From positions 76,154 through 140,153 of the forward strand of contig JBAZTA010000002.1 of NCBI GenBank assembly GCA_041662125.1: 64,000 nt of DNA, read 5' to 3'. Under the pieces are notes generated by a model that ran no database searches, had not been told where the DNA came from, and was given only the letters and a program-made list of their open reading frames with translations. This stretch comes from Candidatus Omnitrophota bacterium. GTDB taxonomy: Bacteria > Omnitrophota > Gorgyraeia > Gygaellales > Profunditerraquicolaceae. The position numbers were made by a program, and so were the translations under genes. Positions 45,001-63,000 of the stretch are shown here, in pieces (the stretch's first letter is position 1; each line of letters begins with the position of its first letter).

Positions 45001-48000
45001 CCTTATTTATCTTATGGTCAATGTTTTGATGGGTGAACTTATTGCGCGAAGGAATAGTTTTGAAGTGATCCCTTGCGCCTTAAAAGCGATCCCTGTTTTA
45101 ACTGAGGTTTTCCGTAAATTCGGGCTTGAATATCGTGAGTCTGAAGATAGGGTTGTATTAGATAGCGATGTTGGAGACTGGAAGCTTTATTTCAGGCGGA
45201 TCAGCCCCGTGGTTACAAAGTTAGAAGATTATTATAAAAGCGCAATACATGAGCCTGCAGGTAAAGCTTCTGGCCCTCAAGGTTCTTCTCCTCTCCAGTC
45301 AGATAATCTTACCTCTGGACCAAGTGTATTTATAGATATTGCGTCGTTAGAGATCCGCACTGAGAAATATTTGCTGACGTTTAAACTCGATTATGGTGAA
45401 AGATACCGTATTTATAAAGACGGCCGGGCCGCGGGAAGTTTTACTTTGGAATTTACCCGCGAATCGCTGAATATTTATAATATTGATATATTCCCGAATA
45501 TGCAGCGAGAGGGGATAGCTAAGGTTATATTACTTAAATTGTTTGCTTCTTGCATTGAGGCAGAGAGGCATCTTACTATTTATGATGCCGGCTGCGCGGA
45601 CAGGATCTATAACCTGGTAAAATATTATTTTTCCGAGTATCCCAAACAGATCAAGATCAAAGGCAAAACTTCTGATTACCGGGAAGTAGCATTTGATGAG
45701 GCTAAAGAACTTATAACGCCGGTATCGTCTATTATCATCAGTATCTTCCCGCGCGCCAAAGAATCAGCTTCCGCAATTACGGCCCAGAGTTTTCTCGATA
45801 GCTATCCTTTGGCTGGAAATCCTGTTCATACGTATCCGTTGTTCGTGCCTCATCAGGATGGATTGAGGTATTCTTATAACCTTAATCGGGAGGCACATGT
45901 TAGTTTAGAAAGCAATAAATATATGCTGCGGGGTTGTCTTGATGGGGCCGCGCAGGCGGTATTAGCAGGCCTTTTTAACGATTACCTTATCTCCATTAGG
46001 TCATACCTGCAAAATGCTCCTCCGGAGAAATTAATAGTAGCCGTTACCAATAGAGAATCAAACCTGCAGTTCCTTTCTTCGCGCCTGTTCGTCTCTATCG
46101 CCTCAATATATGGCAGCTCTCTCGTGTATGTCCATCCCTCTCTTTTTAGCCTTGCTTCGATCATCCAGGAAGATATTATCCGCCATATGGCCGGCTACGC
46201 GCGCGGTTTAAGTGTCCGGGAGGTTATCGGATCAACAGTCGCTTACTTTACGATACGTCCACAAAAAGCAAAACTTTTCTTAGAAACGGTTAAAAAAGAA
46301 GGGCTATTATTAGATGAATCTTATGGAAAATTAATAAAACAGGCAGGGGATATTGACAATCGACGGGCATCTTCATCTCTGGTTAGGCAAGATTCTTTCA
46401 TTCATCAACTCAACATAGATAGTACTGATGTGCCGTTTGTAAAAGAGGCGTTGGTTCATTTAATCAGGGATTACGGGCACAAAGCATCTACCCTGAGTGT
46501 TTTGGCAAAAGCGATAAGGAGCATTAAAGAAGGAAGAGGGGGTATCCCTTTTAGAATAAAGGATGCCTATTATGTGGCGAAAATGATCTTGAACTTTCAA
46601 GATGCGCTTTTTAATCCTTCTTATACGTGTAATATTTATAATCCTTTTAAGGGGTTTGCCGCAATTATTCCGTCATTGCCATTTTCTGATGAAGATAGCT
46701 TGGTATTTGCCGTATTTCCTCAAGAACAGCTTGCTTTCAGGAATAATACCGAACCAGAGAAACAGCATGTGCCAGCTGCCCTCTATTACATTGGATATCA
46801 AAATAACGCCAATAACCTCATCGTGCATACTATGCAGAGTGACCTTTTTGGCAGTTTGAAAGACGGCTGGAGAAAACGGTGTAAATTCTGGCCTGAAATG
46901 GGGATTTCATTATTGGAAAGCTATGCGCAAGAAAGAAAAATGCATGGTATTTTTATTGCGCCTGCCGCGTATCAAAAGGAAAAATGGCTCAATATTCCTG
47001 AGCATTTGGCCAAGAGGATTTATGATGAAGCTCCGTATAAGCAGGGATACGTTCCCGTCTCTCTTTATCCACAGTGTATCATAGAAACGGTTGTTTTGCG
47101 TCAGGCATGGTATAAGACAATCCTCTCGGGTTTGAGTTCTTCTCCTTTAAATAATGGTATTCATGAGACATCTGAATTAAAACACTTGAGGGTGCTCCTT
47201 GGGGGAACGTTCTCTGATAAGCGAGTAATTGATGATGCAATACGGCTTATGGGAGACAACGGCTTACGTGAACAAGGGATACTTTTGCTTCAGAAAAAGT
47301 TATGGCAGCAGAAGGGCCGTGGTTTTGAGGAAAGTGATCCTGAGTTACGTAAGTATATCTGGGAAAAGCTTATGACGGTTTCTTTCAGAGAAGGAGGTTT
47401 TATTAAGATCGTCAAGAGAAGTAGTTTGCCTTTTACCATAACCCGGCAATTGTTTAAAGAGCTGGGCCACGCGGTTATAGCCGGAACAATGCCTCAAGGA
47501 GGTTCTCTTTCTTTGGGCGGATACCTTTTTAAATTTACGCAGTATGGCGGCGTGGATTATGAATTAGAAGTGGAAGCGGGACTTTTGAAGCGCATATTCT
47601 TCATGAATGATTATTCTCTGGTAGAGTTCCTTTCGGTTCTTGACCGCTGCACAGGGGAAATTATTGATCTGCATTGCGGGAAGATCCCCCAAGGGCGTTT
47701 CAGCGGCTATCAAGATGCGGTTATAGAGGGATATTTGGGAAGAGATGGAATATTGGATTTGGCCGGCAGGCGTTGGGCTAAATTCGGCAGTGAATTCGCC
47801 TATGAAAAGGCCAGGCTTTATGTTAAAGGCGGTTTAGTGAGTCGCTGTCAATCAATGGAGTCAGAGTTTGATGAAACGTTTTCATTGATCTGGGATGACA
47901 GGAAGGATGTTTATATTGATTGCTTTTGGGCTCGATTACCTCAGCAGAAATTGAACGTTTTGCAATCGTATCACCAGATACATCTTTTTAGGTTAAGTAA

Positions 48001-51000
48001 GGATGGTTCGTTGTTATTAGGAGGAGAGGAATGGATTAATTTTGGCGAGGAATATTCTTACCGCTACGCGGATATCTTTGATATACGTAATCCAAGCGGG
48101 GAAAAAGCGTTTATATTCGGGGCTCGGGTTTGGGAAGGTGCTGATATGAAAGTTTCTAAAAGCCTCTCCGGAGTTTACGCGCTTCAAGAAGGCAGCCGTC
48201 CGCAAGATTTTATCAAAGGAGAATTATTGGCTGTTTTTGAGAAATGGAGCGATAAAAAGATGGCTCAACTGCCTACGCAGAATTACATCATTTCTCCAAG
48301 GACATTAACTGTTAACGCAGCGTTGGAATTGCAGGGGTTCGTTGCATCTTTCTCAGATGAATTTTTCTCTTGTGCTGAAGTTGAGGTTATGGTTATGGGA
48401 GGAGAAAAACGGCTGGTAAGGTTCATACGTGACAATCGTGGCGTACCGGTATTTGATAGTGAAAATAAACCGCTCGTGATAGATCTGTCTTTAGGCATTA
48501 AGGCACAGTGTTTTGAAAAAGCCAAGGCATATCAGGATAAAAGGCGCAGCACGGTACAGTCGCGTTTTAATGAGGCGGTTGGGTATTATAATAATGGAGA
48601 TGTGGAAAATACACGACAACTGCTTTCTCAAATAAATAGATCTTTTAGTCAGAGAAGAATTCTGATCGATGGAGAACGATCTCTTGTTAGGCAATCAAAG
48701 GCGTTTATTCATTGGCTGGAAACTATCCGTCTTCTGCGCCAAAAACTTTCTTGTTTGAAAGGTGAAGGCGTAACTGTTTTAAGGGAATTATTGCCTATTC
48801 TTGAACTGCGGTATTTTGAGCCGCACGCCGCGGAATATTTACAGGAAATAGAGCGTAGGATCATGGATATGGTTCAGGAGAAAGCAATGGAGGGCCTTTA
48901 TTACCGGCAGGCAATAAAGGATATCCGTCATGCCGTTACCGTAGAAGCATTGCATGCCTTGTTTTTGGATAATCTGAAAGCCTCAGGCCGGGAAGAAATT
49001 GAATTGTTACGGAGTGAAAGGCGAAAAGAGATAATCGAGCAAGAGGTTGAAGGAAAGAGCATGGTTGATTTACAGCGGATGCTTTGGAAGGAAGACGAGC
49101 TGCATCAGGATTTTGCCTTGCCTCAGGATGATCATGAATCGCGCCTCTACGTGTGGAGAAAGCTTTTAGCTCTGTCATTTGGCAAAGATACGCCCGTTCA
49201 ATATCTTAACCGGCAGGATTCCTCGAGAGCGGTTAATCGCGGAGCGTTACGCTCATTAGGCCATGTGGTGATCCGCGGAGTCTTGAAAGGCAACTTTGCA
49301 CTGCGTATTGGTGAATATAGCTTTGGCTTCCGGGGATACGCAGATTCCGCCTATGAGCTTGAAGTGGATAATGGCATCCTGCGGCAGATATTTTTCTTTA
49401 AAGACCATACGCTGTTTGAATTTTTTCCTATTATAGACAACCATACGGGTGAGGTCATTGATGTTCACCGAGGTACGATCGTTACCAATAAATTTATGCG
49501 CTACAACGATATTACGACCTTAACGTATCTGGGAGTCAATGGGCAGCTTCGTATCGGAGGCAGGCGGCCGAATATCCTGGGTGATCGTAAAAAAGGGATT
49601 TGGACTTGGGCATCTTTTGGAGAAGAATACAAATATCAAAAAGTGAAGCTCGTGATCAAAGACGGATTAATATCATGGTGTACTTCGATGGAGTCCGGCC
49701 TGGATGAACCGTTTATTTTGATCAAAGATAAACGCCAGGGGAAGTTTATTTCCTGCATCTGGGGCCGTTTCCTTGAAGAGCATTTAAATCAGTTGCGGCC
49801 ATGGCATGAGATCCATCAGAAACGCTTGACTAAAAGAGGGTTGTTGATCATGGCCAATAAGGTATGGATGGATTTTGGCGCGGATTGCGGATATGGGTTT
49901 GCCTGTGTGGATGGTATTTTAAATCCCTCTCACAAGAAAGCTTTTTTAGTGAGAGCTTACGCGAATAAAAAAGACGGGTCTTTGGTGCATAAGAAATTGA
50001 ATAAGCTTTATGCCCTCGATAATGGATTTAGTCCGGATGATTTCAAACCGGGTGAATTAATTGAAGTATTTGAGCGATGGAGTGAGAATTTAGAGGCATT
50101 AGTGTCTGTCTTTCTTCAGGGTAACTTTATTATTCAGGGCCTTACGACTGATGCCAAGGGCCGTTTTTGGTTCCGCGATTTTGATATTACCGCAGAGCGC
50201 CTTCCCGAAGTAGCAGTCGAAATTTTGGCTTTAGATAACCAGGTCGCACTTATCCGTTACCGTAATGATTCATGCGGTAGGCCTGTTTACGGTATTGATG
50301 GCAGGCTTTTTGTCGAGATTGACCTGCGGGAAGGTAGTCTCAGGTCGCAGCTCTGGCAAAAATCCCAAGCATATCAGTCGGTTCATATGCAGCGCTTAGC
50401 TGCTCGATACCGCCAGGCAGTTGCGTTGGTAAGGCAAAATGACTATCCCGGCGCGCTTCATTATTTGCATGTTTTAAAGAGCAGGCTTGAAACTGAGAAG
50501 ATCCGTGTTTCAGGTGAAAAGACTATTGCCCGCAGGGCTGATACGATCCGTGCTTTGATAGTCGAAGTTAATTCGCTGAGGCAAAAAATCAGGCGAATGG
50601 ATGAGAAAACGGCAAAGTTACTCGAAGAAGATCTTGCGGGAGTCATTCCGCAATACCTGGACGGCGGCCGCGCTGCCATAGGGGATTTACTTTCACGGTT
50701 GCGCAGGATAGAGAGAGGCTTGCGTCAGGAAAGGTTTGCACTGATGAAGCGGGTAAGAACGGCCTGTATAGAGTTGCTGCATGCGCAATCTTTAGAAGAA
50801 TTGGAAAATATAACGCTCAGCGGTTTTGATGGATCGGCGCTGGAAAAAATATCGCGGGTGAAAGAAATTAGACGTAAACGACTTCTCTCTTCCCGAGAAA
50901 AAGAACTTGTTCGAAACTTGAGGGAAGATCTGCGCCAGGCAAATGCGCTTGCGTCACTGGAGCAGCTGAGTATTGACAATGCTATTGGAGAGCCCCGTCG

Positions 51001-54000
51001 AGAGAAATTGAGCCGTCTTATTGAAGCAAAAAGGCGTGAGCTTCTGCTGAAAGGTTTAAAGCAGAAGATATTTGGCGCCCGCAGTGAATCTGAACTGGAA
51101 GATATCATTGATGACATTAATAAAGAAACGTATCCGGAGGCTATCCTGTATCAGCAGAAGCAATCCTTACGGATTAAACAATGGAGGCAGCGGCGTAAAT
51201 ATCCTGATTTAGAATCTACGAAAGCGGCATATTATAGCCGCGAGCCCGAAGAACGGACTCCTGAAGCGCTTAAGCGAAAGCTTTCTGAAGGAGGAGACTG
51301 GTGCCTTTATGATGCTGCTTGTAGGTATGGGATCCTTGAGAGGCAGTCCCAACAGGATAAAGAGCCAATCGAATTAACCGGCCATCAAAAGTTCATGCTC
51401 AAGATTTGGGAGTATTCACAAGAGAATACCTTGGATAGACAGGAAACTGATGTGTATGGTGTGAGTAACGTTGAGCTTTGGTATATGATGGTTGAAGATA
51501 ATGACGCACTGGCTCAGGAAAAGCTTCTTCAGGCATTTATGCCGAAGGCGTTTAGCTTGATGAAGAAGTTTGGCGGTGTTGATCCGCTTAACCGGATCAC
51601 ATCGGCTGAACAGGCTTTTTACAGTGATGACCTTATGGGTACGGCAATTAATACAATATTAGAGGCCCTGAGAAAATGGAACCCTGATCTATGCGTTAAT
51701 TTGGAGGATTATGTTGAACAGGAAATGCTCGTTGCCGTGCGGCAGGAAAGGAACCATCCGTTAACCAATACGCATATGACCATGTCTTTGTCTAATCCGT
51801 ATGGCAATAAGTGCGATCCAGGTGATAGGGGAGGTACTAACTTTTCTGGCAGCCGATACAAGCAATTGGAAGACAACCTTTCTGAAAATAGTGTTCCAGA
51901 TCCGGCAGAGCGTTTTGTGCGCATGAAAGAATTTCTTGAAGCGGTTGTTGCACGCGATTATCCGATTCCTGAAACTTGGGAACGAGATGAATTGTTAGAG
52001 CTTTTGTTCAGCAGGCGGGAGAAAGAAACCTTTAAAGATGATCTGCGGGATTATATAACAAGGGAAAAGCTTATGCTTTCTTCTTTGGAGCCGTTTTCAG
52101 TCTGGATGGTAGGAAGTATGGGATACCTCGGCCTGGCGCGTAAAGGAATAAGTGATGTCAATCTCTTGGTATTGACAGAAGCATCTGGGGATAAGATTTA
52201 CAAAGCTGCTCAGTATATGCAGTATGCGCTGGGAGGAACGCTTGAGGTTCGTGAAGGTCAAGACGTGACGTTATCTGTCGGCAAAAACGGTGATTTCAGT
52301 AATTTACTTTTTGAGGCTCCTGGTTTTGTTGATTTTATGCAGAGCCATTGCCTTGGCAGCGAGTTTCGCGGGTATCTTTCGGTAGATATAGTGGGAGTTA
52401 ATGGTTTTGATCAGCCGCTAAAACGTTCTTTGCAGCGGTCTTATTTACATATCGCGGAGAACCTTTATAAGCTTGGTATTAACGCTGTAGGGGTTATGGA
52501 GTCTCCTGTGGGCTACAGCCATAAAGTAGTTAAGAAAATACTTTCGGCAGTCTCGCATGATGCTCAAGAGTATGCCTATTTCGTCCATGAATTCCAGATG
52601 CGTTTCTTTGCCAAGCAGGTAAGAAAAGTATTGCGAGAACTTAATGACCAGGGGATGACTTGCCTACGGGCAAGTTCTCCTGTTTCTGCTGAACATCCCA
52701 CATCCGTATTTTACCAAAAGATCCGTCAATTCAATAAAAATCTGCGTTTGATCGTTGAGCGTGAGTTTTATACGCGTGATGATATTGAAAGGATTTTTAA
52801 TGATTCGTTTGCCGGCTGCTCAATGAGCGAGATGGCAGCTGTTGTATATTTAGTCAAAGCATTGATACTGCGATTAAGGAGTGGCAAGAGGGGCGGGCCA
52901 ATGGATCTTCAATTTATTTTATCAATGGACCAGTTTGTGGCTGAAGGCGTATTGACGCGCGAGGAGCGTTGGCAATTAAGGAATATGCGTGATTATGGGT
53001 TCATTGATAACATTTTTACGCGTTTACAGCGGCGTATACTTATTGAAGCTGAATTTATCCAACTGCCCCGTCATTCGGATGTTATGCGTTTCTCCCGGCT
53101 TGATAGAAAAAGAGCGCTCGATATTGAAAAATCTCTTAAAGCTGATTTAGCCGGTTCTCGCATCCTTTGGGTAGATGATCTGCCGCTTATCTGGGAGATC
53201 ACTGAAGCGCGCACGCAGCCGTATTTTGCGGTGATAATCAAGCCAAACGGCATAATTTCTCGTATCGTCATAAAATCACGGTTTTGTGAGATTGAAGAGC
53301 ACCATATTTCAGGAATAGTGGGGAATCAGTTGCTTGAAACAATTCAGGCGCCGAGTGTCTGGATGCAAGAGGGGGCGCGCTATGCTTATATTCGAGAGGT
53401 TGTCGGTGTAGATATTCTGGAATTCATTTGGGACTTAACGAGGCTGGATGAAGAAATACAGCGAAGATTTTTCTATGGGTTAGGATTGGCTATGGCTGAA
53501 GCGCATATTTTAGGCATGCACGACCGCCGGCACAACTTAGTGATCAATGTAGACAAATTGCGCAAATACCCGACAGAAGAATTAATCATTCTTGAAAAAA
53601 GGCCGGTTATTAATATTGACAGGGAAAGTATGCTCCATCCTGATTATCTCAAGAGAAATCCTCAGGATGATCATTATGAAGCCGCGCATGTGTATTCGTC
53701 GCTTGCTCATCCTGCGCCGCAGGTGTTCCGTAAGCATTTTGAGTGCTATCTTCAGGGTTTTGGCGATGCTTATAAGAACCATACGGAATATTTTAGGTTA
53801 GGGCAGACAGATAATCAAAAGCGCATTATTGATTTAGCGGGTACCCATGCATTGCCTGTTATTGAGCGCTTGAGGCAGGATACCAGCGGTATTGAATCAT
53901 TGGTTGATACTATACGCACGCAAATCATAAAGTTGTTAAACATTAAGCCAGGCTCTAGTTCTCCGATTCAGGGTGCTCTGTCTGTGAACGATCAGCTTTT

Positions 54001-57000
54001 GTCGAAATACCGCAGATCGCTTATACGCGTGATTGATAAAGAAATAAGCTTGAAAGATTTTCGCGCTCAGGAACGGCTTGATGGAATCGGCTCTGAAAGA
54101 AAATATATCGGGCCCATCGTAAATCAGTGGTTGGGCGTATCCGGAATGCTCTATAGCTTGCGCGATAATGTTGTTCCTGTATATGTAGATAAAATTGCTT
54201 CAGAGCGGGATGTATTGACTCCGGATGAGGCGCAATCGATCATTGTCAAAAAGATCCGGCAGCAGGCAGCTCAAAGAAAGCCAGCCATCATCAGGATAAC
54301 CAGCAGGCCCGGGGCAGATGAGGCGGAAATTATTGCCGACTTAAAGGATATTTTTTCCGGGGAGCGTGTGTTGTGGTATCAACCTCAGGAGAGGATTTTT
54401 ACGCGTCTTCAGGAAGAACTCCGCATCCCGGATGAGTTTAAATTTGAAGTCGCCGCGGTAGAGAGAGTAATAGCGCGGGCAAAAGATGATTTTGATATTA
54501 TTTTTATCCATCATCCTTATGCCTCAAGAGGCTACTATGGCTCGTTATACGATATGACTACGCCATTGCAGGCGGATATAAAGATTTTTCTGGAGTGCGA
54601 TGAGATCGAACGCCTTCAGCGTATTAAGGATTATCATCTTGAAATCGGGGAGATAGGTTTGTTAAATAAATTCTATCGCTATACGGTTGATCAGGACCGC
54701 CGGGATGCTGATTATGTAGTAGACACCTCACTCTATCCAATATCGTTAAGCGATATGTACACCTGTGAGAGACAATGGCAGATTGTTCATGAATTAAAGA
54801 GGGGAGATATTATCGAAAGGTTAGGCCGTGCGGAAATGTTCCAGCAGGATGATTTTGCTTTTATATTTGAGAATATTCGTCAGATTGCCGCTGAGTTTGG
54901 ATTGTTGCATGCATTTAATTCCGCGGTCAAAGATGAAGCGGCGATGCGTTTAAGCGAAGATGAAATAAAACAAGTCCGGTTGGGGTTAGCAAGAGAAGAA
55001 AAGCAAAGGTTCATGACGCAAAAGGAAAAGAAAATAATCGCCGAAGGAATTAAAAATTGGCTGGAAAAGTTAAATATTCATACCGTGCTCTTAGAATATG
55101 GCGTTATGGATTACTATTTTTCTCTGATCAGCACTCTTGGTGTCCGGGGCAAAGCTGTTACCTGTTATAGCGACGCCGATATTCGGCTTGTCGTTAAACT
55201 GCCCGTAACAGCGAAAGCTTGCCTGAAGGATAAAATTTCTGAGAAACTATTACATGATGACCCCGAAGCGCATTTCGCGGCATACCTTGCAGAGAGGCTC
55301 TATGGATTATCGCACCCGGGCAGCAGGTTCGGCTATTATGTTTACTTCCCTCTTAAACAAACAGGCCTTTTACATGCTTTGGCAATCACTGATTTGGAAA
55401 TTCATATTGTCCCGTTACAATTGCCTTTAGAAAGGAACCCGCAAGAAAAACAGTTAGAGCGTATTTTTGCATTGCTTTTTGGGTTGGAATACCACGGCCT
55501 GGAAATATTCGCTTCCGGTAAGAATACCTCCAGAGAAATGGTTGAAGAAATCCGCACCTGCCTGTCTGCGCAGGGCCTTGAAGAAAGGTTTATCGATTTT
55601 ATATTTACTGAAATCGATGTATTAAAAGAAAAATTTGTGAAGCATTCAAGATTATTAGAAATGTCTGGTTCGCCTGTTAGATCCCGATGTGAATTAAACG
55701 AAGCAAATATCCATTATGCCCGCGCTTTAGGCGCTCAAAGCGACAATGGCTTGAGCGTGCTTACCAAGGGCCAAGTCAATAGGAAACAACGCAGGTACTC
55801 AAACCTTTTTACCCGGGCGGCGTTAGACGATTATTATGCTGAACGCGAAGATGAAGATTTTGACTGGGATAAGATATTTGGTGAAGGTTTAGCCGCAACA
55901 GAGGATGCTTGCGCTGCTTCTCTTAAAAAGCTTTACGCGCGGTGGGAAGAGATCAGCGACCCTCCTGACCTGGATGATTGGGAAGAGTCGGATACTGATA
56001 AGATAGGCCTTCTGCGTGACCACATAAGAAAGAAAACAGGCAAAGAAGTTATCAGGTTAGATTTTAGCAGTTATCCGGATTTTTCTTACGATACTATGGA
56101 AGCGGTCAATCAGGCCATTCCCGCTGTTAAGCAGGGGCATGCTCTTGAGATCCTCTGTAACACAGTGAGCCAGTTTGATACTTTTGCTCAGTTAGTTGAT
56201 GCACAGTTCGCGCAGCAATTGAATTTTACTCCTACCGGCCAATCAAAGAATATGTCCTGCTACGGCGATGGGTTTAACTACGGGGAAATACATTTTGCTT
56301 TGCGAGACCTTTTACATAATGCCTTGGTGCATGGGAATCATTTTAAGCTTTCTTTGCCTGTTTTTTTCTTGTTCGATCTGCAGGAGCCGGAACTATCCGT
56401 ATTTGACCTGGCTTTAGGGGAAACTCCTGTTGATGTTAAACAAAGAGCAGAACGCGCGCAAATAAGCGGGCAAGGCAGGTTTATCGATTCTATCCTCGAT
56501 TTCTATAATTTTGGTTTTTACGGCTCTCTTATCAGGGATAGCCGTACAGAAAAAACCATCGGCAGACAGGTGTCGGTTTTAATGCGTAAAGATAAGCATT
56601 TAGACCCGGCGTTGCGTTCTGTGCAATTCGAATTACAGCAAGCTTCGCAGGGATTACAGGTATGGGTGATCAATGGTAAAGAGCGTCAAGAGTTAGTTGT
56701 CAATAACAGGGTTGTTGATGCCGGTGCCCAGACGGTTAAATTGATGCAATATTTGCTGGTAAGCCCTGCGTTTGATTCCCGGACGCAAGAAGGCCTGACA
56801 GGCAGGCAGCGGATCGACTGGTGGAGCTGGTTCTTTGAGAAATATTGCCGTGGTAACTCTGCCCCCTGGAAAATAGAACAAGTCCATAAAGATGCCTCTG
56901 ATGAACTGGTGAAGTTTTGCTTAACTGACCCGCAGACTATGATCCGCCTTTATTTGAGTTCTTGCACGATCGATTATGGTAAAGATTGTATCGAATGGGA

Positions 57001-60000
57001 GTATGTAATTAAGGACCGGATCTTTACGCGCACAAACCTTGAATATTACTTCCTGCTTTATACATTTATGGGGGACCTTTCTTATGCGCAAGCCACTTTC
57101 ATTACGTCCCGCGTTGAGGAGAATATTCAGGATAATGATGACGTGATCGCGTTATACAACCTTCAGGAACAAGGCAAGGCTGTTTTCTTGCGGCAGGATA
57201 AGTTGTTTAACTATTTTGCGTTTAAAACTCATGAAACCGTAGAGGTCAAGGAAATAGATCTGGGGGATAAAAGAGTCATTTTGGTCAAAGATCCCCAGGG
57301 AAGGCTTTATGGACAGTTGGGCATTGATGCCCATATCAAATTGGCCCTTCAGCAAAGCCGGGTTACCTGGGATGTTACGGAGGAAGAATCCCGGTTTTTG
57401 GCAGAGGCGATACAAGGCGTATACCCGCCAGCGGTGCTAGTACCTTTGGAATTAGGCGTTGGGAAAAATGATTATATCAGGTACATAAAGAAAGATATGG
57501 AGAGTTTTATCGAGCAAGGCAAGGGGACCTGGTGTTTCCCCGATCATCTTTTGGATATCGCGCAGCGGTTCGGCTTGTATCCATCTGACCTGATAAAAGA
57601 CGCCTTCGTGAATAAGAATTTAAGCGAGCACACGCAAATAAGATATTATACAAAACTCATCGAGAATATATTTAGAAAGCAATTCCCTATCTACAACAGT
57701 TGTTCTATTTTATATGATGAGTCTCTGGCAGGATTATTCAAACTCAAAAGCGCGGCTGATTTTGAGCAGTTAGCGAAAGATATGTGGGATAAAACCGATT
57801 GTATGCAGGTCTATTTGAACGCAGTGATGATGCCTCATGGAGCATCTTTTGAGATCGGCTCTTTGCATCAGTTCATGAGCCGGGTCATCCTTCCTGAGCT
57901 AAGCCGTATACGCCCGCAGGGTGAGCCGTTGCGCATGCTCTGTTTGGGCTGCGAAGAAGGTGCTGATGCGTATATGCTAGCCATGGAATTATTAGAAAGC
58001 GGATGGGATACAAAAGCGCGGCCTGTTGAGATCACGGGCGTTGGCATTAACCGTTTTGCGATTGAAATTGCGCAAGCCGGGCATTTTAGGCGAAATAATA
58101 TCGATAAGCTTTCCGAGGAAACAGTGAATAAGTATTTTGCTTTGGACGCAGAAACCGGATTGTATGTAATAAATAGCCGTTTGAAAGCAATGGTGAGTTT
58201 TCAAACGGCAAACTTCTTAGAAGCGCAAATCCGCAAACTCTTGGGGGGCTTTGATTTTATTCTGCTTAATCAAATGATCGATTGCTTTTCGCATGAGGCC
58301 CATATGCCAGTGGAGCGGGATATTTTAAGAGAAATGCTTTCCCCGGGAGGATTTTATACCACTCACTATTCGCCCTCGCGTGTTGTCCCGGAAGTTGAGG
58401 TTAGTATGTATCATTTAACAGATAATCCTTTCAGGGAAAGTGTTGTTCAGAAAATTTGTTCTGAGTCAAGAATTTATAACGAATATATAAAAAGTTCTTC
58501 TCCTTTGACGAGTGATTTAAAAGGCCTGACTATTCTTGTGACTGCCGGGCCAAATCAGGAGCGTATCCCTGGAAGGCCGGAGTATATTACAAATTTCTCG
58601 TCAGGCAAACAAGGATTTGCCATCGCTGCTGCCGCAAAGGCGCGAGGCGCGCGCGTTATCCTTATCGCTGGGCCTACGTATTTAGAAACTCCTGATAACG
58701 TTATAAGGGTCGATGTGGTCACTGCCCTGGAAATGAAAGAAGCGGTAGCAAAATACCTGCGCTTTGCCGATGTTTACATTTCAGCCGCGGCAGTCGCCGA
58801 TTACCGCCCGGTAAAGCTCGAGAAAGAAGGCAGGCGCGATTTTACCGTAACACTCCACAATAATCCCGATATTTTAAAATGGGTCGGCAGCCTTAAGAAA
58901 GAAAAAAGTGAGTTTTCATCTCTGGTGGTGGTTGGTTTTGCCGCAGAGACTGTGGAGCCGGGAGAAATGGTGGAAGAGGCGCGCCGTAAATTTATCGCCA
59001 AGAACATGGATTTTATTTGCGCCAATAGAGTTGGGCAGGAGGGAAGCGGATTTCGCAGTGAAAACAATAAAGTAGTAATAATCAGGGAGAATAAAGACGA
59101 TGATCATTGTTTGGAAGCGTCAAAATCCGATGTCGCCAATAAGATATTAGATGCAGTTTTAGATGTCCGTGAAAGGCGTTCGCTTGGATCTGTTATCAGG
59201 GCTGTGGAGTTGGAAGGAGAGCTTCAGGAACAAAGCCAAGCGCTGCGGTCTACCCAGCAGGCGCGGTATCCGCCGTTTGCGGGCATCGCGGGAAAAACGA
59301 TTTTGATTTCTGCCGGATCGACAGAAGAATCCATTGACGGGGTCAGGATCGTCAGCCGTGCGGTAAAGTTCGATTTACCGTACGCGATCGCTGCAATAGC
59401 TCGTATAAGTGGGGCTAAGGTGGTCCTGATAAGCGGACCAACTCATACGCCTCCTCCCGAAGGTGTCAGATTTATTCAAGTAGCTACTGCCCAAGAGATG
59501 GCAAGACAGATAAGAAAATACCTCAAGCAAGCGGATATTTTCATCAATTTAGCCCGCCCGCCTTTTATCAAACCACGGCAGCAGCAATCCCAAAAGATCA
59601 AGAAACAAGGCAAGGAACTGACACAATGGTATTTTACCTTAAACGATGGGATCTCTCGTTTAGGTGAACGAAGCAGGCATTTAAATAGGATTTTGGTTGA
59701 AGACGGATATGAGTCAGTTGATTTAAGCGAAGCGCTCTTTTTTATCAGGGCTGCGATAGCAAAAGTGCTATTTCTCGCCCAGCCTCTTTCTTTATGCGCC
59801 GCGGAAGCTCCGCAAAGGAGTTTTGAGGAATATCGGGCTATCGGAGTTTTTGTGGTGAACAGCCATGGCTTGAGAATAAACTTTTCGCCTATCGAACAGG
59901 CTTTGAGTAAAGTAAATGATTATCTTTGTGAAAAGGGCCGCTTGGCATTAGTCAGGAATGCGTTGCGTGCGCAGGGTATCCAGGCGGAAAAAATAGATGA

Positions 60001-63000
60001 GGTAGTAACGCTGGCTCAAGATTATCTTAAGAATAGAAAAATAGAACTGGAACAGCTCAAAGAGATCCAGTTTTCTTATGCCCTTTTAGATTGGTTTAAG
60101 GCTGCGCAAATCCTATCTCTTCGCAAAGGTGAGTTTGTTTCTCTGGCAGAGCGGGGGGATCTGGCGCTGGTTCTGCACCAGGTAAAGGTGCGCGTTATAG
60201 CTGCCTCATTACCGCGGCATCCGTGCGCATCATCCGCGCTTAAACAAAAGATAACTCCTGCGAAAGTATCTACGTTGTTTATTGTTGCTATCCTGCTTAC
60301 CGTAGTTAATGCCGTTGCAGTTGTCGTTGCCGCTCTCTTTGGAAGCGAGATGACCATTTATCTGGCATCATTGGTATCGAACATCATTATTGCTCCTTTT
60401 GCGGAAGAGATTTTATTCAGAAGAGTTATATTTAAAGGTTTATTGGTTGATCGGTATAAGGTCAGTACCGGGAAAAGCATTTTTATAAGCGCGGCTCTTT
60501 TCGCGGCGTATCATTTAATTATCCCGTTTTTTGCCGGAATCAGGTTTATACCTATTAAGCAATTTTTGTCCGGGGTCGTATATGCGTCTGTGTATGTTAG
60601 GACACGATCGTTACTGGCTATTATTATTCTTCATGCTGTCAGTAATATAGTTACCGAGACAGCTGTTTTGTTCGGATTTATCAATCAAATGCCTTTTTAT
60701 GCTACTGCCGTAATGTTGATCGCAAGCCTGATTTTATTCCCCCGTAGGCCTGTTAGAAAAGCTTTTTCGAGCGGTGATGAAAAAGAGAAACTCAAAGAAA
60801 AGAAAGGCAAAGTTCTTCAGGAGAAAAAAGGCGCCGCGGCAGAAGGCCGCAAAAAAGGTAAAAAGAATGCTGCTTCTCAGAAAAAATCCAGCTCAAGCGC
60901 GCTTGGGGAAACGAATAACGAAAATCTGACTTTTGAATGGGGCAAAGACCGAATAGGGCAGTATTATTGGGACGCAGGATGTATCTCTATTTATGCTACG
61001 GAACAATTATTTGTGCTTAAACTTTTTGAGAATCCTTTGACACTGCGTTTTACGTTATTGATCGATAAAGCCAAAAAAGAGACTTTGATCTTATACGGCC
61101 CGCAAATTCCATTATTCTTCTGGGAAAGAGATAGTGAGGAGCGCCAGCAGCGTTATCAGCATAGGGATGAACCGTCTCTGGCAGTTAAATTCTTTCCAAA
61201 ATACCGGGAATTGCAGATCAGGGTTAATGAAGAGGTTTTCCAAGATTTATTGAGTCAGAATTTCCCGCTTTCAGGAACCTTTCCGGTAACTATGGAGAAC
61301 GGACTGCATTGGAGATTTGTGGAACACTTTACCCCGCTATTTTCTGTCCCTCCCGGGCATAGTAATAGGATCCATATTACTGTTGCGGGTATTGTAAGGG
61401 TATATTTGGAACAAAATGCCGATACCCAAGCAATTAAAAATATCCCGGAAGTATTGCGGCAACAATATATGTATAATTTTAATAGCTTGATAGAGCTGCT
61501 TGGTTTGCTGGTGGGGTATCCTGTTAAATACCTCAAGCGATACTCGGGGCTTTCAGCTTGCGGCGCATTGCATGAGTCTGGCGATTCCTTTGTTGAAGTT
61601 CTCGAAGGTCTTTTTGACGATTTTTTAAGGATTATTCCGGTAACCTATGATGAACATAAGAAGCGGCTTGTTTACAATGTTGCCTATCCTTTAGAGGGGA
61701 ATATTCTTCTTACTAAAACTCAAATTACGGACAGTATGATGAATTATCCTGTACCTTACGGAAAAAAGGTCGCGGTTTTTGAGATGTCAGATGGCGATCA
61801 TTTAGCTTTTGCGGGAAACTTTGTCAGCTCCCTTCAGGAAGAAAATGAGGTTAGGATTTTTACCAGTGGACAGCTTCCTTTAGAGCAGGTGACAGGAGAT
61901 TATGAACCTGATGTTATTCTGGTTCCGTATTGCCCGGATGCCAGAAGGCTGGTACGTCAGTATTCCTCTGTTAGGCCGCGTGAGTTGATGGCGTTCTATT
62001 ATGCTTCCCTGGAATTACCTCTTGAGTTTAATCTCGTCTTTTCTTTTGGTGAAGAAACCGCAGGAAAAGTTGTGGAAGCTGTTGGCGCGCATAAGTCACA
62101 GCAGGAACGCAGAGATTACAAAAGTTTTACCCGGTTTATCATGCAATATACGGGCGCTTTAGCCGGTTACTACGGTTTCACGCAGAAAAAAGATGCTTAT
62201 GCTCACGCCTTTAGTGTTACTCGCATAGAAAAAGGAAAAGTTTTGCCGGTTGATCTTTCAAAACGGTATGCGCTGGCATTTGAAAAAGAAAAACCGCATG
62301 CTGGGTTTACTCCTGTTAGGATAAATAATAATACTTATGTAAGAGCTTCTCCTCCTCATCCTGATGATATAGAAATCGCCGTAGGGGGTTTGATGGCGCA
62401 GCTTGCTCAAAAAGGGATAGAGGTCACAAACTTGATCTTTAGCAGCGGTGAGCGCGGCGTAGTCTTGAGTGAGGCGCAGGAGAAAAAAGGTTTAACCGGT
62501 GCCGAGATCCGCCGTGAAGAATTATGTAATGCCACAAAAATCTTAGCTCCCGGCGGAATGGTGAAGAACATTCATTTGGATTATGACTATACCTACGCAC
62601 GAGATCCGGAGGGGACACAAGAACAGTTGTATGCACTGGAAAAGGAATTATTAAAACAGCGTTCTTCCGGTAGAAATATCCCAGAAGTGGTTTTATTTAT
62701 TCCTCATCCTCGTGACGATAATAAAACCCATAGAATATTTGCCCGGCTTTTAGAGCAGGTGTGGGGCCGGTTATCTCAAGAGCATACTATTACTGTTACG
62801 GTCATTTATTACTTGGCGCCATCAGCCGGGAAGTATAACACTTTTTTCCCGACGACATATAATGTTTTGCCGCAGAGCGCTGATAATGTTCAGATGTTGA
62901 AAAAGGTTAAGTCCGTTGAGCCGTTTAAGCGGGCAATTTCTATTATTATCCCCTCGCGGACAGGCCTTTCAGCCCAGCAAGGCCCGCACCAGATGGAATT

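What the first reader, a model, noticed from the sequence alone, without database searches (positions are those of the whole stretch)
58502..59662. An intact CoaB (phosphopantothenoylcysteine synthetase) domain is followed in tandem by a degenerate CoaB-like copy.
The first copy (58502-59134) keeps every hallmark of Dfp CoaB (VTAGPT, SSGK, AAVADY, NPDIL, VVGFAAET, ICAN). The second copy (59282-59662) keeps the Rossmann-like scaffold (ILISAGST, AIAAIARISGAKVVLISGPT, VATAQEM) but loses SSGK and AAVADY. CoaB functions as a dimer, so an active/inactive tandem pair could be a pseudo-dimer. Alternatively the whole unit is non-catalytic. No CoaC (flavoprotein) half is adjacent.
Basis: partly seen in the sequence, partly recalled or inferred. 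Interest (0 to 1): 0.6.

Follow-up and report, generated by a model that had tools for sequence, protein, structure and literature searches.

The report
Single-chain asymmetric CoaB pseudo-dimer
Inside a giant gene of more than 21,000 codons, two copies of the coenzyme A enzyme CoaB sit side by side, and each has lost exactly the catalytic pieces the other keeps, so together they most likely form one working active site on a single chain.

Summary
Two PF04127 (DFP/CoaB) domains lie in tandem: copy 1 at nt 58514-59146 (full profile, 1.4e-53) and copy 2 at nt 59285-59680 (profile 2-131/186, 7.5e-26). Two corrections apply. The whole 64-kb window is one stop-free frame of 21,333 codons, open at both ends, so this is a module of a giant protein. 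Copy 1 is also not fully intact.

In bacterial CoaB dimers the K-x-K-K loop and the DPVR arginine act on the partner protomer's active site (PMC7794376). Copy 1 keeps all same-protomer motifs (N+SSGK, AAVAD, NPDIL, GFAAET, ICAN). It has lost DPVR (now PGRPE), and its K-x-K-K loop is shortened and degenerate. Copy 2 has lost the same-protomer motifs but keeps IDGVR and KIKK.

The same reciprocal pattern holds in all three lineages found (window; ADZX01000494.1; Ga0209417/Ga0209211/ERZ1286166). In one of them the tandem sits between CoaC and CoaD/CoaE in the same giant frame.

Best reading: a fused pseudo-heterodimeric phosphopantothenoylcysteine synthetase with one composite active site. The evidence is computational only, and the domain packing was not verified. 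It is a new variant of a known kind.

The parts
2..64000 (+). One stop-free reading frame of 21,333 codons, open at both window ends. It is part of a giant multi-enzyme gene.
   Evidence: Six-frame scan. Pfam hits are scattered along it: FBPase_glpX, HD_4, Peptidase_M50, PHP x2, PrmA-like methyltransferase, HAD, ThiG, PRK/udk, CheR, DFP x2, Rce1-like, PIG-L. There are 13 strongly hydrophobic 19-mers. GC skew is positive throughout.
57866..58351 (+). CheR-type SAM methyltransferase domain, the upstream neighbour of the tandem. No functional link to the tandem is shown.
   Evidence: PF01739, 7e-20. NCBIfam CheR scores 40.7 bits, below its cut-off. It is not next to the tandem in the two other lineages.
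58514..59146 (+). CoaB copy 1 (codons 19505-19715). A full-length CoaB fold that carries the same-protomer (cis) half of the active site.
   Evidence: PF04127 1-186/186, 181.9 bits. 1u7u 6.5e-42. AF2 pLDDT about 95 and Foldseek TM 0.91-0.92, normalised to the target, against 1u7z. Keeps 55/62 CoaBC columns that are >=90% conserved.
58565..58582 (+). Copy 1 segment IPGRPE, which occupies the family's (L/I)DPVR position. The trans-acting Asp becomes Pro and the trans-acting Arg (E. coli R206 / M. smegmatis R207) becomes Glu.
   Evidence: Family alignment, columns 243-247. The same change occurs in all three lineages (PGRPE / PGMEE / PGYEE).
58592..58609 (+). Copy 1 NFSSGK: the catalytic Asn (E. 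coli N210) plus nucleotide-binding motif I. Retained.
58787..58804 (+). Copy 1 AAVADY. Its Asp corresponds to the metal-coordinating D281 of M. smegmatis CoaB. Retained.
   Evidence: Role taken from PMC7794376.
58814..58825 (+). Copy 1 KLEK, a degenerate K-x-K-K motif in a loop about 5-6 residues shorter than the family norm.
   Evidence: The same position reads TIEE in P0001 and AIKE in L084.
58862..58876 (+). Copy 1 NPDIL, nucleotide-binding motif II of the CTP-using bacterial type. Retained.
   Evidence: The motif is described in PMC12985681.
58934..59026 (+). Copy 1 GFAAET ... ICAN, the C-terminal core strands. Retained.
59147..59284 (+). Inter-copy linker of about 46 residues, predicted to be largely one long helix. 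It ends in a conserved (E/A)RYPPF.
   Evidence: AF2 helix at residues 214-261. RYPPF is identical in the window and P0001. The linker is about 82 aa in L083.
59285..59680 (+). CoaB copy 2 (codons 19762-19893): the N-terminal two-thirds of a CoaB fold. The cis catalytic motifs are destroyed and the trans elements are retained.
   Evidence: PF04127 2-131/186, 7.5e-26. 5int 6.3e-17. AF2 pLDDT 88-93 for strands 1-4 in the tandem model and 84-96 through residue 130 when modelled with a CoaBC alignment. Keeps 29/62 conserved columns.
59333..59347 (+). Copy 2 IDGVR, the retained DPVR-type motif. Its Asp and Arg act on the partner protomer's site in solved CoaB dimers.
   Evidence: columns 243-247: D and R are kept in all three lineages. 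Role from PMC7794376.
59357..59374 (+). Copy 2 RAVKFD, which replaces N-x-SSGK. The catalytic Asn becomes Arg and motif I is lost.
59549..59566 (+). Copy 2 LARPPF, which replaces AAVADY. The metal-binding Asp is lost.
59594..59605 (+). Copy 2 KIKK, an intact K-x-K-K motif in a full-length loop. In solved structures this loop clamps the CTP triphosphate of the opposing protomer.
   Evidence: It reads KLKK in P0001 and KIKK in L083. Role from PMC7794376 and PMC7770189.
59681..59767 (+). Possible remnant of the copy 2 C-terminal third (helix, short strand ILVED, helix). There is no significant sequence match, and the ICAN strand and C-terminal hairpin are absent.
   Evidence: The HMM match ends at about codon 19893. 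AF2 confidence falls to 37-67 here. Conservation with P0001 collapses after WYFT.
60251..60667 (+). Rce1-like/CPBP intramembrane glutamic protease module with four hydrophobic helices, the downstream neighbour of the tandem.
   Evidence: PF02517, 6e-16. NCBIfam CPBP families score below their cut-offs. Hydrophobic segments. The module is 51% identical to a module that lies upstream of the tandem in L001.

Best explanation
The two DFP domains are the two halves of a single-chain, asymmetric phosphopantothenoylcysteine synthetase (PPCS, CoaB).

Canonical CoaB is a homodimer with two active sites. Each site is built from one protomer's Rossmann-type nucleotide and acyl pocket (cis elements). It also needs two elements that reach over from the other protomer (trans elements): the K-x-K-K loop, which clamps the CTP triphosphate, and the DPVR arginine, which is needed for cysteine attack on the acyl-cytidylate.

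Here an ancient duplication inside a giant gene fused two protomers through a helical linker of about 46 residues. One of the two sites was then abandoned. Copy 1 kept the cis pocket and lost its trans elements. Copy 2 kept the trans elements and the dimerisation hairpin region, and lost its own pocket and C-terminal third.

Proposed cycle:
1. CTP and Mg2+ bind copy 1 through SSGK, NPDIL and the Asp of AAVAD, and are enclosed by the KIKK loop of copy 2.
2. 4'-phosphopantothenate is activated to 4'-phosphopantothenoyl-CMP, with the Asn of NFSSGK in copy 1.
3. L-cysteine, positioned by the Arg of IDGVR in copy 2, attacks the intermediate to give 4'-phosphopantothenoylcysteine and CMP.

What is shown: the homology, the reciprocal motif pattern, its conservation in three lineages, and the co-occurrence with CoaC, CoaD and CoaE in one lineage. 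What is inferred: that the copies pack like a CoaB dimer, that the unit is catalytically active, and which substrates it uses.
For: 1. Both domains are highly significant CoaB homologues in one continuous frame.

2. [quoted passage not shown] In the inhibitor complex, R207, D204, L203 and I292 are assigned to protomer B, while D281 and F282 are assigned to protomer A; N211 and A280 are listed among the residues shared with the active site. R207 is described as the 'opposing protomer' residue that gates a pocket opening onto the active site. R207Q blocks conversion of the acyl-CMP intermediate (PMC7794376; PMC7770189).

3. Take the 62 columns that are >=90% conserved in 116 CoaBC proteins. Copy 1 departs from consensus in all three lineages only at GPT->GPN, D-P-V-R -> P-G-x-E and M->Q. 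In addition, its K-x-K-K is degenerate and its loop has a 5-residue deletion. Copy 2 keeps T, D, R and K(I/L)KK in all three lineages, while it loses N210, SSG, AAVAD, NPD, GFAAET and ICAN. The union of both copies keeps 59/62 columns in the window.

4. The tandem is old and maintained. The three copy 1 sequences form one clade and the three copy 2 sequences form another, each 100/100 in NJ bootstrap. Identity between lineages is 55-57% for copy 1 and 44-46% for copy 2.

5. In the Ga0209211/Ga0209417/ERZ1286166 lineage the tandem lies in the same giant frame after CoaC (TIGR00521 positions 2-179, 194 bits) and a NUDIX domain. It lies before CoaD (99 bits) and CoaE (112 bits, above the cut-off). 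These are the remaining steps from phosphopantothenate to CoA.

6. The copy 1 model superposes on E. coli CoaB with TM 0.91. Copy 2 is confidently CoaB-like through the K-x-K-K region when it is given a family alignment.
Against: - No coordinates were available, so I could not check that the two copies pack like a CoaB dimer. The tandem AF2 model has pTM of only 0.60 and leaves the KIKK loop of copy 2 at pLDDT below 50.
- The copy-2-alone model is biased by an alignment made of true CoaBs.
- The statistical support for complementarity rests on a few columns in three related lineages.
- In the window itself no CoaC, CoaD or CoaE lies within 19,500 codons upstream or 1,450 codons downstream. The nearest kinase domain looks more like uridine kinase than PanK. 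The pathway context is therefore borrowed from a relative.
- Copy 1 carries lineage-wide changes of unknown effect (GPT->GPN, M->Q, D->R/K after ICAN).
- The window's copy 1 still has two of the three motif lysines.
- dN/dS for copy 2 between two close relatives is 0.49, based on only 13 substitutions. This is uninformative.
Confidence: 0.66

Rival explanations
1. Copy 2 is a decaying, functionless relic of a duplication. Copy 1 is the enzyme, working alone or by pairing with copy 1 of a second giant-protein molecule.
For: Copy 2 has lost every cis catalytic motif and its C-terminal third. The giant ORF holds several other internal duplications. dN/dS for copy 2 is not clearly low (0.49 on 13 substitutions).
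Against: Copy 2 is retained, with the linker motif RYPPF, in three lineages that are only ~45-57% identical, and the copy 2 sequences form a 100/100 clade. Within it, the trans residues D, R and K-x-K-K are invariant. A copy 1 homodimer would lack the R206/R207 arginine and the lysine loop at both sites, and R207Q abolishes product formation (PMC7794376).
Confidence: 0.1
2. The whole tandem is non-catalytic: a nucleotide- or CoA-precursor-binding, regulatory or scaffolding module of the giant protein.
For: There are no other CoA enzymes in the 21,333 codons of the window. The neighbours are a CheR-like methyltransferase and a CPBP protease. Many domains of giant proteins are reported as highly divergent, with roles that could not be inferred (bioRxiv 10.1101/2023.11.21.568195). 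Copy 1 has family-atypical changes (GPN, Q for M).
Against: Between the two copies, 59/62 strongly conserved CoaBC columns survive, including all residues tied to catalysis. Pure binding modules usually shed these residues. The same module sits among CoaC, CoaD and CoaE in a relative.
Confidence: 0.12
3. It is an active single-site ligase of the CoaB type that has been retargeted. It would activate a carboxylate other than 4'-phosphopantothenate, or join a nucleophile other than cysteine.
For: Lineage-wide substitutions lie next to the nucleotide loop (GPT->GPN, M->Q) and after ICAN (D->R/K). CoaC is absent in the window and in L001. The tandem lies near a membrane protease and a PIG-L-type deacetylase.
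Against: N210, AAVAD, R206 and K-x-K-K are all kept in the composite. These are the residues implicated in phosphopantothenate, cysteine and CTP handling. The pathway context in the third lineage is CoA-specific.
Confidence: 0.12

Closest known systems
Bacterial CoaB (PPCS) homodimer, the C-terminal half of CoaBC/Dfp (E. coli 1U7U/1U7Z; M. smegmatis 6TGV/6TH2)
   Same: Same Pfam family. Copy 1 is 40-43% identical to E. coli CoaB and superposes on it with TM 0.91 normalised to the target. Motif II is the CTP type, NPDIL. The active site is expected to be built across a two-protomer interface, with K-x-K-K and the DPVR Arg supplied in trans (PMC7794376).
   Different: There are two non-identical protomers on one chain rather than two identical chains. 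Only one of the two sites can be complete. Copy 2 lacks about the last third of the fold. In the window there is no N-terminal CoaC fusion and therefore no CoaC-trimer-organised dodecamer. The module is embedded in an ORF of more than 21,333 codons.
Plasmodium falciparum PfPPCS1-PfPPCS2 heteromeric PPCS (PMC12985681)
   Same: A PPCS made from two different paralogous CoaB-type subunits that must associate to function, and that uses only CTP.
   Different: The subunits are separate polypeptides of the eukaryotic type. [quoted passage not shown] There is no reciprocal loss and no fusion.
Active/dead paralogue pairs that share interface active sites, such as trypanosomatid AdoMetDC-prozyme and deoxyhypusine synthase heteromers (own knowledge, not checked here)
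   Same: An oligomeric enzyme is duplicated, one paralogue then degenerates catalytically, and it is kept because the surviving site needs the partner.
   Different: Those are different folds, and the partners are separate genes rather than a fusion. In the present case both copies have lost something, and the losses are reciprocal (cis versus trans).
Multi-enzyme giant proteins of Omnitrophota ('Archaeovorin' type, bioRxiv 10.1101/2023.11.21.568195; 'multi-enzyme metabolic clusters', bioRxiv 10.64898/2026.06.07.730766)
   Same: An ORF above 10,000 aa is tiled with many different metabolic enzyme domains (methyltransferases, HAD, HD, NUDIX, FBPase, peptidases), hydrophobic helices and long unannotated stretches. 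Domain repeats within one polypeptide are common.
   Different: The taxon of this window was not established. Neither paper mentions CoaB/DFP, pantothenate or coenzyme A. The SecA_DEAD and N-terminal C39 domains described there were not found in this window, which lacks both gene ends.

Membership tests
CoaB / PPCS (Pfam PF04127 DFP; EC 6.3.2.5) | Significant match to the DFP profile above the gathering score (22 bits) | tested here: met
   Copy 1 scores 181.9 bits and copy 2 about 90 bits. The local CoaB HMM gives 212 and 91 bits.
CoaB / PPCS (Pfam PF04127 DFP; EC 6.3.2.5) | Complete CoaB Rossmann-type fold | tested here: inconclusive
   Copy 1 meets it: profile 1-186/186, pLDDT about 95, TM 0.91 to 1u7z. 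Copy 2 covers only profile 2-131/186, and its remainder is modelled at pLDDT 37-67.
CoaB / PPCS (Pfam PF04127 DFP; EC 6.3.2.5) | Same-protomer catalytic and nucleotide motifs: Asn (E. coli N210) + SSGK, AAVAD with the metal-binding Asp, NPDI(L/V), GFAAET, (I/V)xAN | tested here: met
   All are present in copy 1 in three lineages and all are lost in copy 2. The feature is therefore met once per tandem.
CoaB / PPCS (Pfam PF04127 DFP; EC 6.3.2.5) | Partner-protomer elements: the DPVR Arg (R206/R207) and the K-x-K-K loop | tested here: met
   Copy 2 meets it (IDGVR, KIKK) in all three lineages. Copy 1 does not (PGRPE; KLEK/TIEE/AIKE in a shortened loop). Roles are from PMC7794376.
CoaB / PPCS (Pfam PF04127 DFP; EC 6.3.2.5) | Dimeric assembly with the active site at the interface | not testable with these tools
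   AF2 output gave no coordinates. The tandem model has pTM 0.60, and the inter-domain loop of copy 2 is unmodelled.
CoaB / PPCS (Pfam PF04127 DFP; EC 6.3.2.5) | CTP-dependent ligation of 4'-phosphopantothenate and L-cysteine | not testable with these tools
   Needs an enzyme assay. There is only indirect support, from residue retention and from CoaC/CoaD/CoaE neighbours in a relative.
Bifunctional CoaBC (NCBIfam TIGR00521 coaBC_dfp) | N-terminal CoaC flavoprotein domain (PF02441) fused directly to CoaB; score above 219.7 bits | tested here: not met
   Copy 1 scores 175.8 bits and covers model positions 182-391 only. There is no PF02441 hit in 21,333 codons and no phmmer hit with a relative's CoaC. 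In lineage L084/L162 a CoaC domain lies about 290 aa upstream, separated from the tandem by a NUDIX domain.
Multi-enzyme giant proteins as described for Omnitrophota | A single ORF of >=10,000 aa carrying many distinct enzyme Pfam families and transmembrane segments | tested here: met
   The frame is at least 21,333 codons. About 15 Pfam families are present, together with 13 hydrophobic segments.
Multi-enzyme giant proteins as described for Omnitrophota | Origin in phylum Omnitrophota | not tested
   The window has no marker genes. The source is not among the GTDB r232 representatives: the scan pattern matches the window's own QVATAQEMA, yet no identical hit was returned. The relatives are unbinned metagenome contigs.
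Multi-enzyme giant proteins as described for Omnitrophota | SecA_DEAD-like domain and N-terminal C39/S8 peptidase (bioRxiv 10.1101/2023.11.21.568195) | tested here: inconclusive
   Neither was found at E<=1e-3 in the window. However, the ORF runs off both ends of the window, so the N-terminus was not seen.

The most novel reading that the evidence does not exclude
These giant ORFs may be 'pathways on a string'. They would encode whole cofactor routes on one polypeptide: CoaC, CoaB/CoaB', CoaD and CoaE, plus NAD salvage, as seen in L083/L084. They would also rebuild interface-dependent active sites by adding a partial in-cis duplicate that supplies only the trans-acting elements. The CoaB/CoaB' pair would be the clearest case. 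A second candidate is the NAPRTase in L083, which is followed by a second copy with only the N-terminal domain. If this is general, giant proteins would be a natural library of single-chain versions of oligomeric enzymes. Their repeat-rich architecture would then have a mechanistic rationale.
Probability: 0.25. Interest if true: 0.75.

Novelty: new variant of a known kind. Interest (0 to 1): 0.55.

Why it matters
PPCS is an essential enzyme and a drug target, and its active site spans a homodimer interface. A natural single-chain version with reciprocal degeneration acts as an evolutionary 'mutagenesis' experiment. It independently marks which residues act in cis and which in trans. It also offers a one-site, one-chain scaffold for mechanistic or structural work.

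The finding also bears on what giant bacterial proteins do. At least some stretches look like working cytoplasmic cofactor-biosynthesis enzymes rather than adhesins or cell-wall hydrolases. In one lineage nearly the whole route from phosphopantothenate to CoA is written into one reading frame.

Finally, it suggests a testable reason for the many domain repeats in giant proteins: they may complete oligomer-dependent active sites in cis.

Tried and rejected
- **GTDB species-representative scan** with a copy 2/linker alignment. The 80 loci kept out of 101 confirmed were ordinary coaBC genes, with no second DFP hit in any of them and no hit to the window's own sequence. This gave no taxonomy and no extra tandems.
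- **Protein search with the Rce1-like region** to find named relatives. It returned nothing at E<=1e-5. This is probably an artefact: the known relative's cluster is represented by a truncated 702-aa call (P0001) of a 2,521-aa ORF (P0270).
- **AF2 of the whole tandem**. Copy 1 and the first four strands of copy 2 are confident. The KIKK loop of copy 2 and everything after it is below pLDDT 50, and no coordinates were returned, so the pseudo-dimer geometry could not be tested. The copy-2-only model with a CoaBC alignment is informative on extent but is biased by that alignment.
- **dN/dS of copy 2** between L083 and L084. There are only 13 substitutions, so the result is uninformative.
- **The PRK-family domain at codons ~14696-14881 as a pantothenate kinase.** NCBIfam favours uridine kinase (54 bits) over PanK (28 bits), and both are far below their cut-offs. 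I dropped this idea.
- **Search for CoaC, CoaD and CoaE in the window** using relatives' domains. No hits.
- **First self-BLAST of the 21,333-aa frame**. It returned nothing, apparently because off-diagonal matches were dropped under the full-length self match. Repeating it with 300-aa chunks worked.
- **Simple overlap test** of 'copy 1 deviates' against 'copy 2 retains' columns. By my rough estimate, not a computed test, it is not significant alone. The argument rests on the structural assignment of those columns, not on this count.
- **Literature searches** for tandem or pseudo PPCS and for PF04127. No prior description was found.
Full report
**What is at the locus**

A Pfam scan finds PF04127 (DFP) twice in the same frame. 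The first match covers frame codons 19506-19694 and the whole profile (1-186/186, 181.9 bits, E 1.4e-53). The second covers codons 19763-19890 and profile positions 2-131 only (about 90 bits, E 7.5e-26).

I built a CoaB HMM locally from 116 CoaBC proteins. It gives the same two hits (212 bits, hmm 1-205/205; 91 bits, hmm 2-133/205) and no third copy anywhere in the window. In window coordinates the copies are nt 58514-59146 and nt 59285-59680.

Copy 1 aligns end to end with E. coli CoaB (1u7u, 6.5e-42). Copy 2 aligns only with the N-terminal ~110-130 residues of the solved CoaB chains (5int, 6.3e-17). The copies are 39% identical to each other over 96 residues. One quoted motif is misread: the first strand is VTAGPN, not VTAGPT.

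The entire 64,000-base window is one stop-free frame on the + strand (nt 2-64000, 21,333 codons), open at both ends. The tandem is therefore a module of a giant protein, not a gene.

Pfam hits are sparse and heterogeneous along this frame:
- partial FBPase_glpX
- HD_4
- Peptidase_M50
- two PHP domains
- a PrmA-like methyltransferase next to a HAD hydrolase
- ThiG
- a PRK/uridine-kinase-type domain
- CheR, directly upstream of the tandem
- the two DFP domains
- an Rce1-like/CPBP intramembrane protease, about 190 residues downstream
- PIG-L

Thirteen strongly hydrophobic segments are present. None lies between codons 13993 and 20083, the stretch that also holds the domains expected to use ATP, SAM or CTP.

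This architecture matches what two preprints describe for giant proteins of Omnitrophota: the 'Archaeovorin' class and the 'multi-enzyme metabolic clusters' class. I could not establish the taxon, so that link is by resemblance only. Neither preprint mentions CoaB, DFP, pantothenate or coenzyme A.

**Relatives**

A word-indexed search of 5.8 billion proteins found one protein with both copies. It is P0001 (49% identity over 62% of the query), from sediment-metagenome contig ADZX01000494.1. All other listed hits were ordinary CoaBC.

An exhaustive HMMER search of 1.84 billion cluster representatives, using the linker plus copy 2, again gave only P0001 at high score (1.8e-44). Reading the sequences of four weaker listed hits also turned up a 167-aa fragment, P0154.

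A metagenome scan added contigs Ga0209417_1000360 (L083) and Ga0209211_10027560 (L084). P0154 maps to ENA contig ERZ1286166:contig_1152 (L162). These three contigs represent one further lineage.

All of these loci are also giant-ORF contexts:
- L083 is a single 3,643-codon stop-free frame on a 113.9-kb contig.
- L001 has three abutting stop-free stretches of 1,523, 2,546 and 1,551 codons.
- JGI calls a 2,521-aa protein where NCBI calls only 702 aa.

A scan of GTDB species representatives returned only canonical coaBC genes.

**The key pattern**

Published structures of M. smegmatis CoaB and CoaBC show that the active site lies at the dimer interface. [quoted passage not shown]

In the inhibitor complex, R207 (E. 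coli R206, in the DPVR motif), D204, L203 and I292 are assigned to protomer B. D281 and F282 (in AAVADF) are assigned to protomer A. N211 and A280 are listed among the residues shared with the active site. R207 is required for converting the acyl-CMP intermediate to product (PMC7794376; PMC7770189).

I aligned 116 CoaBC proteins with the three copy 1 and three copy 2 sequences. Sixty-two CoaB columns are at least 90% conserved in the family. The copies retain these columns as follows:

| Lineage | Copy 1 | Copy 2 |
|---|---|---|
| Window | 55/62 | 29/62 |
| P0001 | 49/62 | 27/62 |
| L083/L084 | 50/62 | 29/62 |

Copy 1 departs from the consensus in all three lineages only at these points:
- GPT becomes GPN.
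- D-P-V-R becomes P-G-x-E, with a one-residue insertion.
- M becomes Q.

In addition, its K-x-K-K reads KLEK (window), TIEE (P0001) or AIKE (L084), in a loop five residues shorter than normal.

Copy 2 does the opposite. It keeps T, D, R and K(I/L)KK in all three lineages, in a loop of full length. It loses the catalytic Asn (now Arg), SSG, AAVAD, NPD, GFAAET and ICAN.

Counted from the per-column table, the union of both copies keeps 59 of the 62 columns in the window. So one composite site is complete: cis elements from copy 1 plus trans elements from copy 2. The reciprocal site is dead on both sides.

**Age and maintenance**

In a neighbour-joining analysis of 123 N-terminal columns, the three copy 1 sequences form a clade in 100/100 bootstraps, and so do the three copy 2 sequences. 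The duplication and the division of labour therefore predate the split of lineages that are now 55-57% (copy 1) and 44-46% (copy 2) identical.

The linker keeps a short RYPPF motif between the window and P0001.

The neighbours are not conserved. The CPBP module lies downstream of the tandem in the window but about 760 residues upstream of it in L001. In L083 a transglutaminase core follows the tandem. The tandem therefore behaves as a self-contained unit that moves as a whole.

**Function**

The best clue comes from the third lineage. The order in one frame is:

1. CoaC, in L084, directly upstream of the tandem (PF02441, 5.7e-33; TIGR00521 positions 2-179, 194 bits).
2. A NUDIX domain, whose best match, below threshold, is CoA pyrophosphatase.
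3. The CoaB/CoaB' tandem.
4. A transglutaminase core (in L083, same frame).
5. A weak CoaE-like domain.
6. CoaD, pantetheine-phosphate adenylyltransferase (99 bits against a cut-off of 103; my chunking split the domain).
7. CoaE, dephospho-CoA kinase (112 bits, above the cut-off of 65.6).
8. Nicotinate phosphoribosyltransferase and a nicotinamidase-like isochorismatase.

The frameshift-ridden contig L162 shows the same order. This places the tandem at the PPCS step of a CoA route written into a giant ORF. It argues that the unit is a working phosphopantothenoylcysteine synthetase.

In the window itself I found no CoaC, CoaD or CoaE. The PRK-type domain looks more like uridine kinase than PanK. 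For this particular gene, therefore, the pathway context is inferred from a relative. The unseen parts of the ORF remain unknown.

**Structure prediction**

AF2 on the 516-residue tandem gave mean pLDDT 75 and pTM 0.60.
- Copy 1 is at about 95 and matches E. coli CoaB 1u7z with TM 0.91-0.92 normalised to the target.
- The linker is predicted as a long helix.
- The first four strands and two helices of copy 2 are at 88-93.
- The region from the LARPPF strand onward, including KIKK, is below 50. The alignment had only one homologue for copy 2.

I also modelled copy 2 alone with a CoaBC alignment. It is confident (84-96) through about residue 130, which includes the K-x-K-K loop and the following hairpin. 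Confidence then decays. Its best PDB match is again 1u7z (E 1e-15, TMq 0.71). That model is biased by its alignment.

No coordinates were returned, so the central geometric claim, that copy 2 packs on copy 1 like a second protomer, is untested.

**Rivals**

- **Decaying relic.** This does not explain why copy 2 is conserved, or why copy 1 lacks residues it would need on its own.
- **Purely non-catalytic module.** This is hard to square with near-complete retention of the catalytic set across the pair, and with the CoA-pathway neighbours in a relative.
- **Retargeted ligase.** This remains possible, because copy 1 has a few lineage-wide substitutions near the nucleotide loop and because the window lacks CoaC.

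I give the composite-site PPCS reading about two-thirds probability.

**Comparison with what is known, and verdict**

The closest system is the canonical CoaB homodimer. This module is the same enzyme family, with a new architecture: fused, asymmetric, one site, and a truncated partner.

The P. falciparum PPCS1/PPCS2 heteromer is also a two-paralogue PPCS. However, both of its subunits keep the full residue set and they are separate chains.

Active/dead paralogue pairs are a known evolutionary theme. The principle is therefore not new, but I found no description of it for PPCS.

I rate the finding as a new variant of a known kind, of moderate interest. Its value lies in three things: the clean natural separation of cis and trans catalytic elements, evidence that giant proteins carry working cofactor-biosynthesis enzymes, and a testable idea about why such proteins are rich in partial domain repeats.

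Noticed in passing
window 2-64000 (+): The whole 64-kb window is a single stop-free reading frame of 21,333 codons, open at both ends. The true gene is therefore longer. Most of it has no Pfam match.
   Followed up: partly
L084:2-1600, L083:3-10931 and L162: In a related giant ORF the CoaB/CoaB' tandem is flanked in one frame by CoaC + NUDIX upstream. Downstream lie a transglutaminase core, a CoaE-like domain, CoaD, CoaE, NAPRTase and a nicotinamidase-like domain. This amounts to CoA biosynthesis plus NAD salvage on one polypeptide.
   Followed up: partly
L083 nt ~6400-7860 (frame codons ~2134-2620): A NAPRTase (partial N-domain plus catalytic barrel) is followed by a second copy that has a complete N-terminal domain but no detectable barrel. 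From my own knowledge (not checked here), the active site of type II phosphoribosyltransferases joins the barrel of one subunit to the N-domain of the other. This may therefore be a second 'trans-element-only' partial duplicate.
   Followed up: partly
L083 frame codons ~551-733 and ~1374-1547: There are two dephospho-CoA kinase (CoaE) matches in the same frame, one weak (37-41 bits) and one strong (101 bits). This is another divergent/intact pair.
   Followed up: no
window codons 20077-20324 (nt 60230-60973) versus L001 nt 7106-7843: The Rce1-like/CPBP module is 51% identical between the two giant ORFs. It lies downstream of the CoaB tandem in the window and upstream of it in L001, so modules have been reordered between related giant genes.
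   Followed up: partly
window codons 3616-3900, 15760-16178 and 16375-16792 (nt ~10847-11701, 47279-48535, 49124-50377): An unannotated module of about 280-400 residues occurs three times at 31-38% identity. Two of the copies lie in near-tandem. Its function is unknown.
   Followed up: no
window codons 6006-6400 and 12718-13107 (nt ~18017-19201 and 38153-39322): A ~400-residue module containing a PHP domain is duplicated at 42-49% identity, about 6,700 codons apart. Another ~150-residue repeat lies at codons 8401-8554 and 9059-9212 (45% identity).
   Followed up: no
L001 nt 3-4571, 4469-12106 and 12061-16713: Three long stop-free stretches in three different + frames abut each other. These could be sequencing frameshifts in an early assembly or a real frame change. 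NCBI called only a 702-aa 'coaBC' gene here, whereas JGI called 2,521 aa.
   Followed up: partly
L084 nt ~1900-2440: Part of copy 1 appears twice, in two frames (a 70-aa exact repeat relative to L083). This looks like an assembly duplication or frameshift rather than biology.
   Followed up: no
window nt 62354-62761: A PIG-L-type deacetylase domain (4e-13) has bacillithiol/mycothiol-pathway deacetylases as its best NCBIfam matches, below threshold. It lies about 570 codons after the CPBP module.
   Followed up: no
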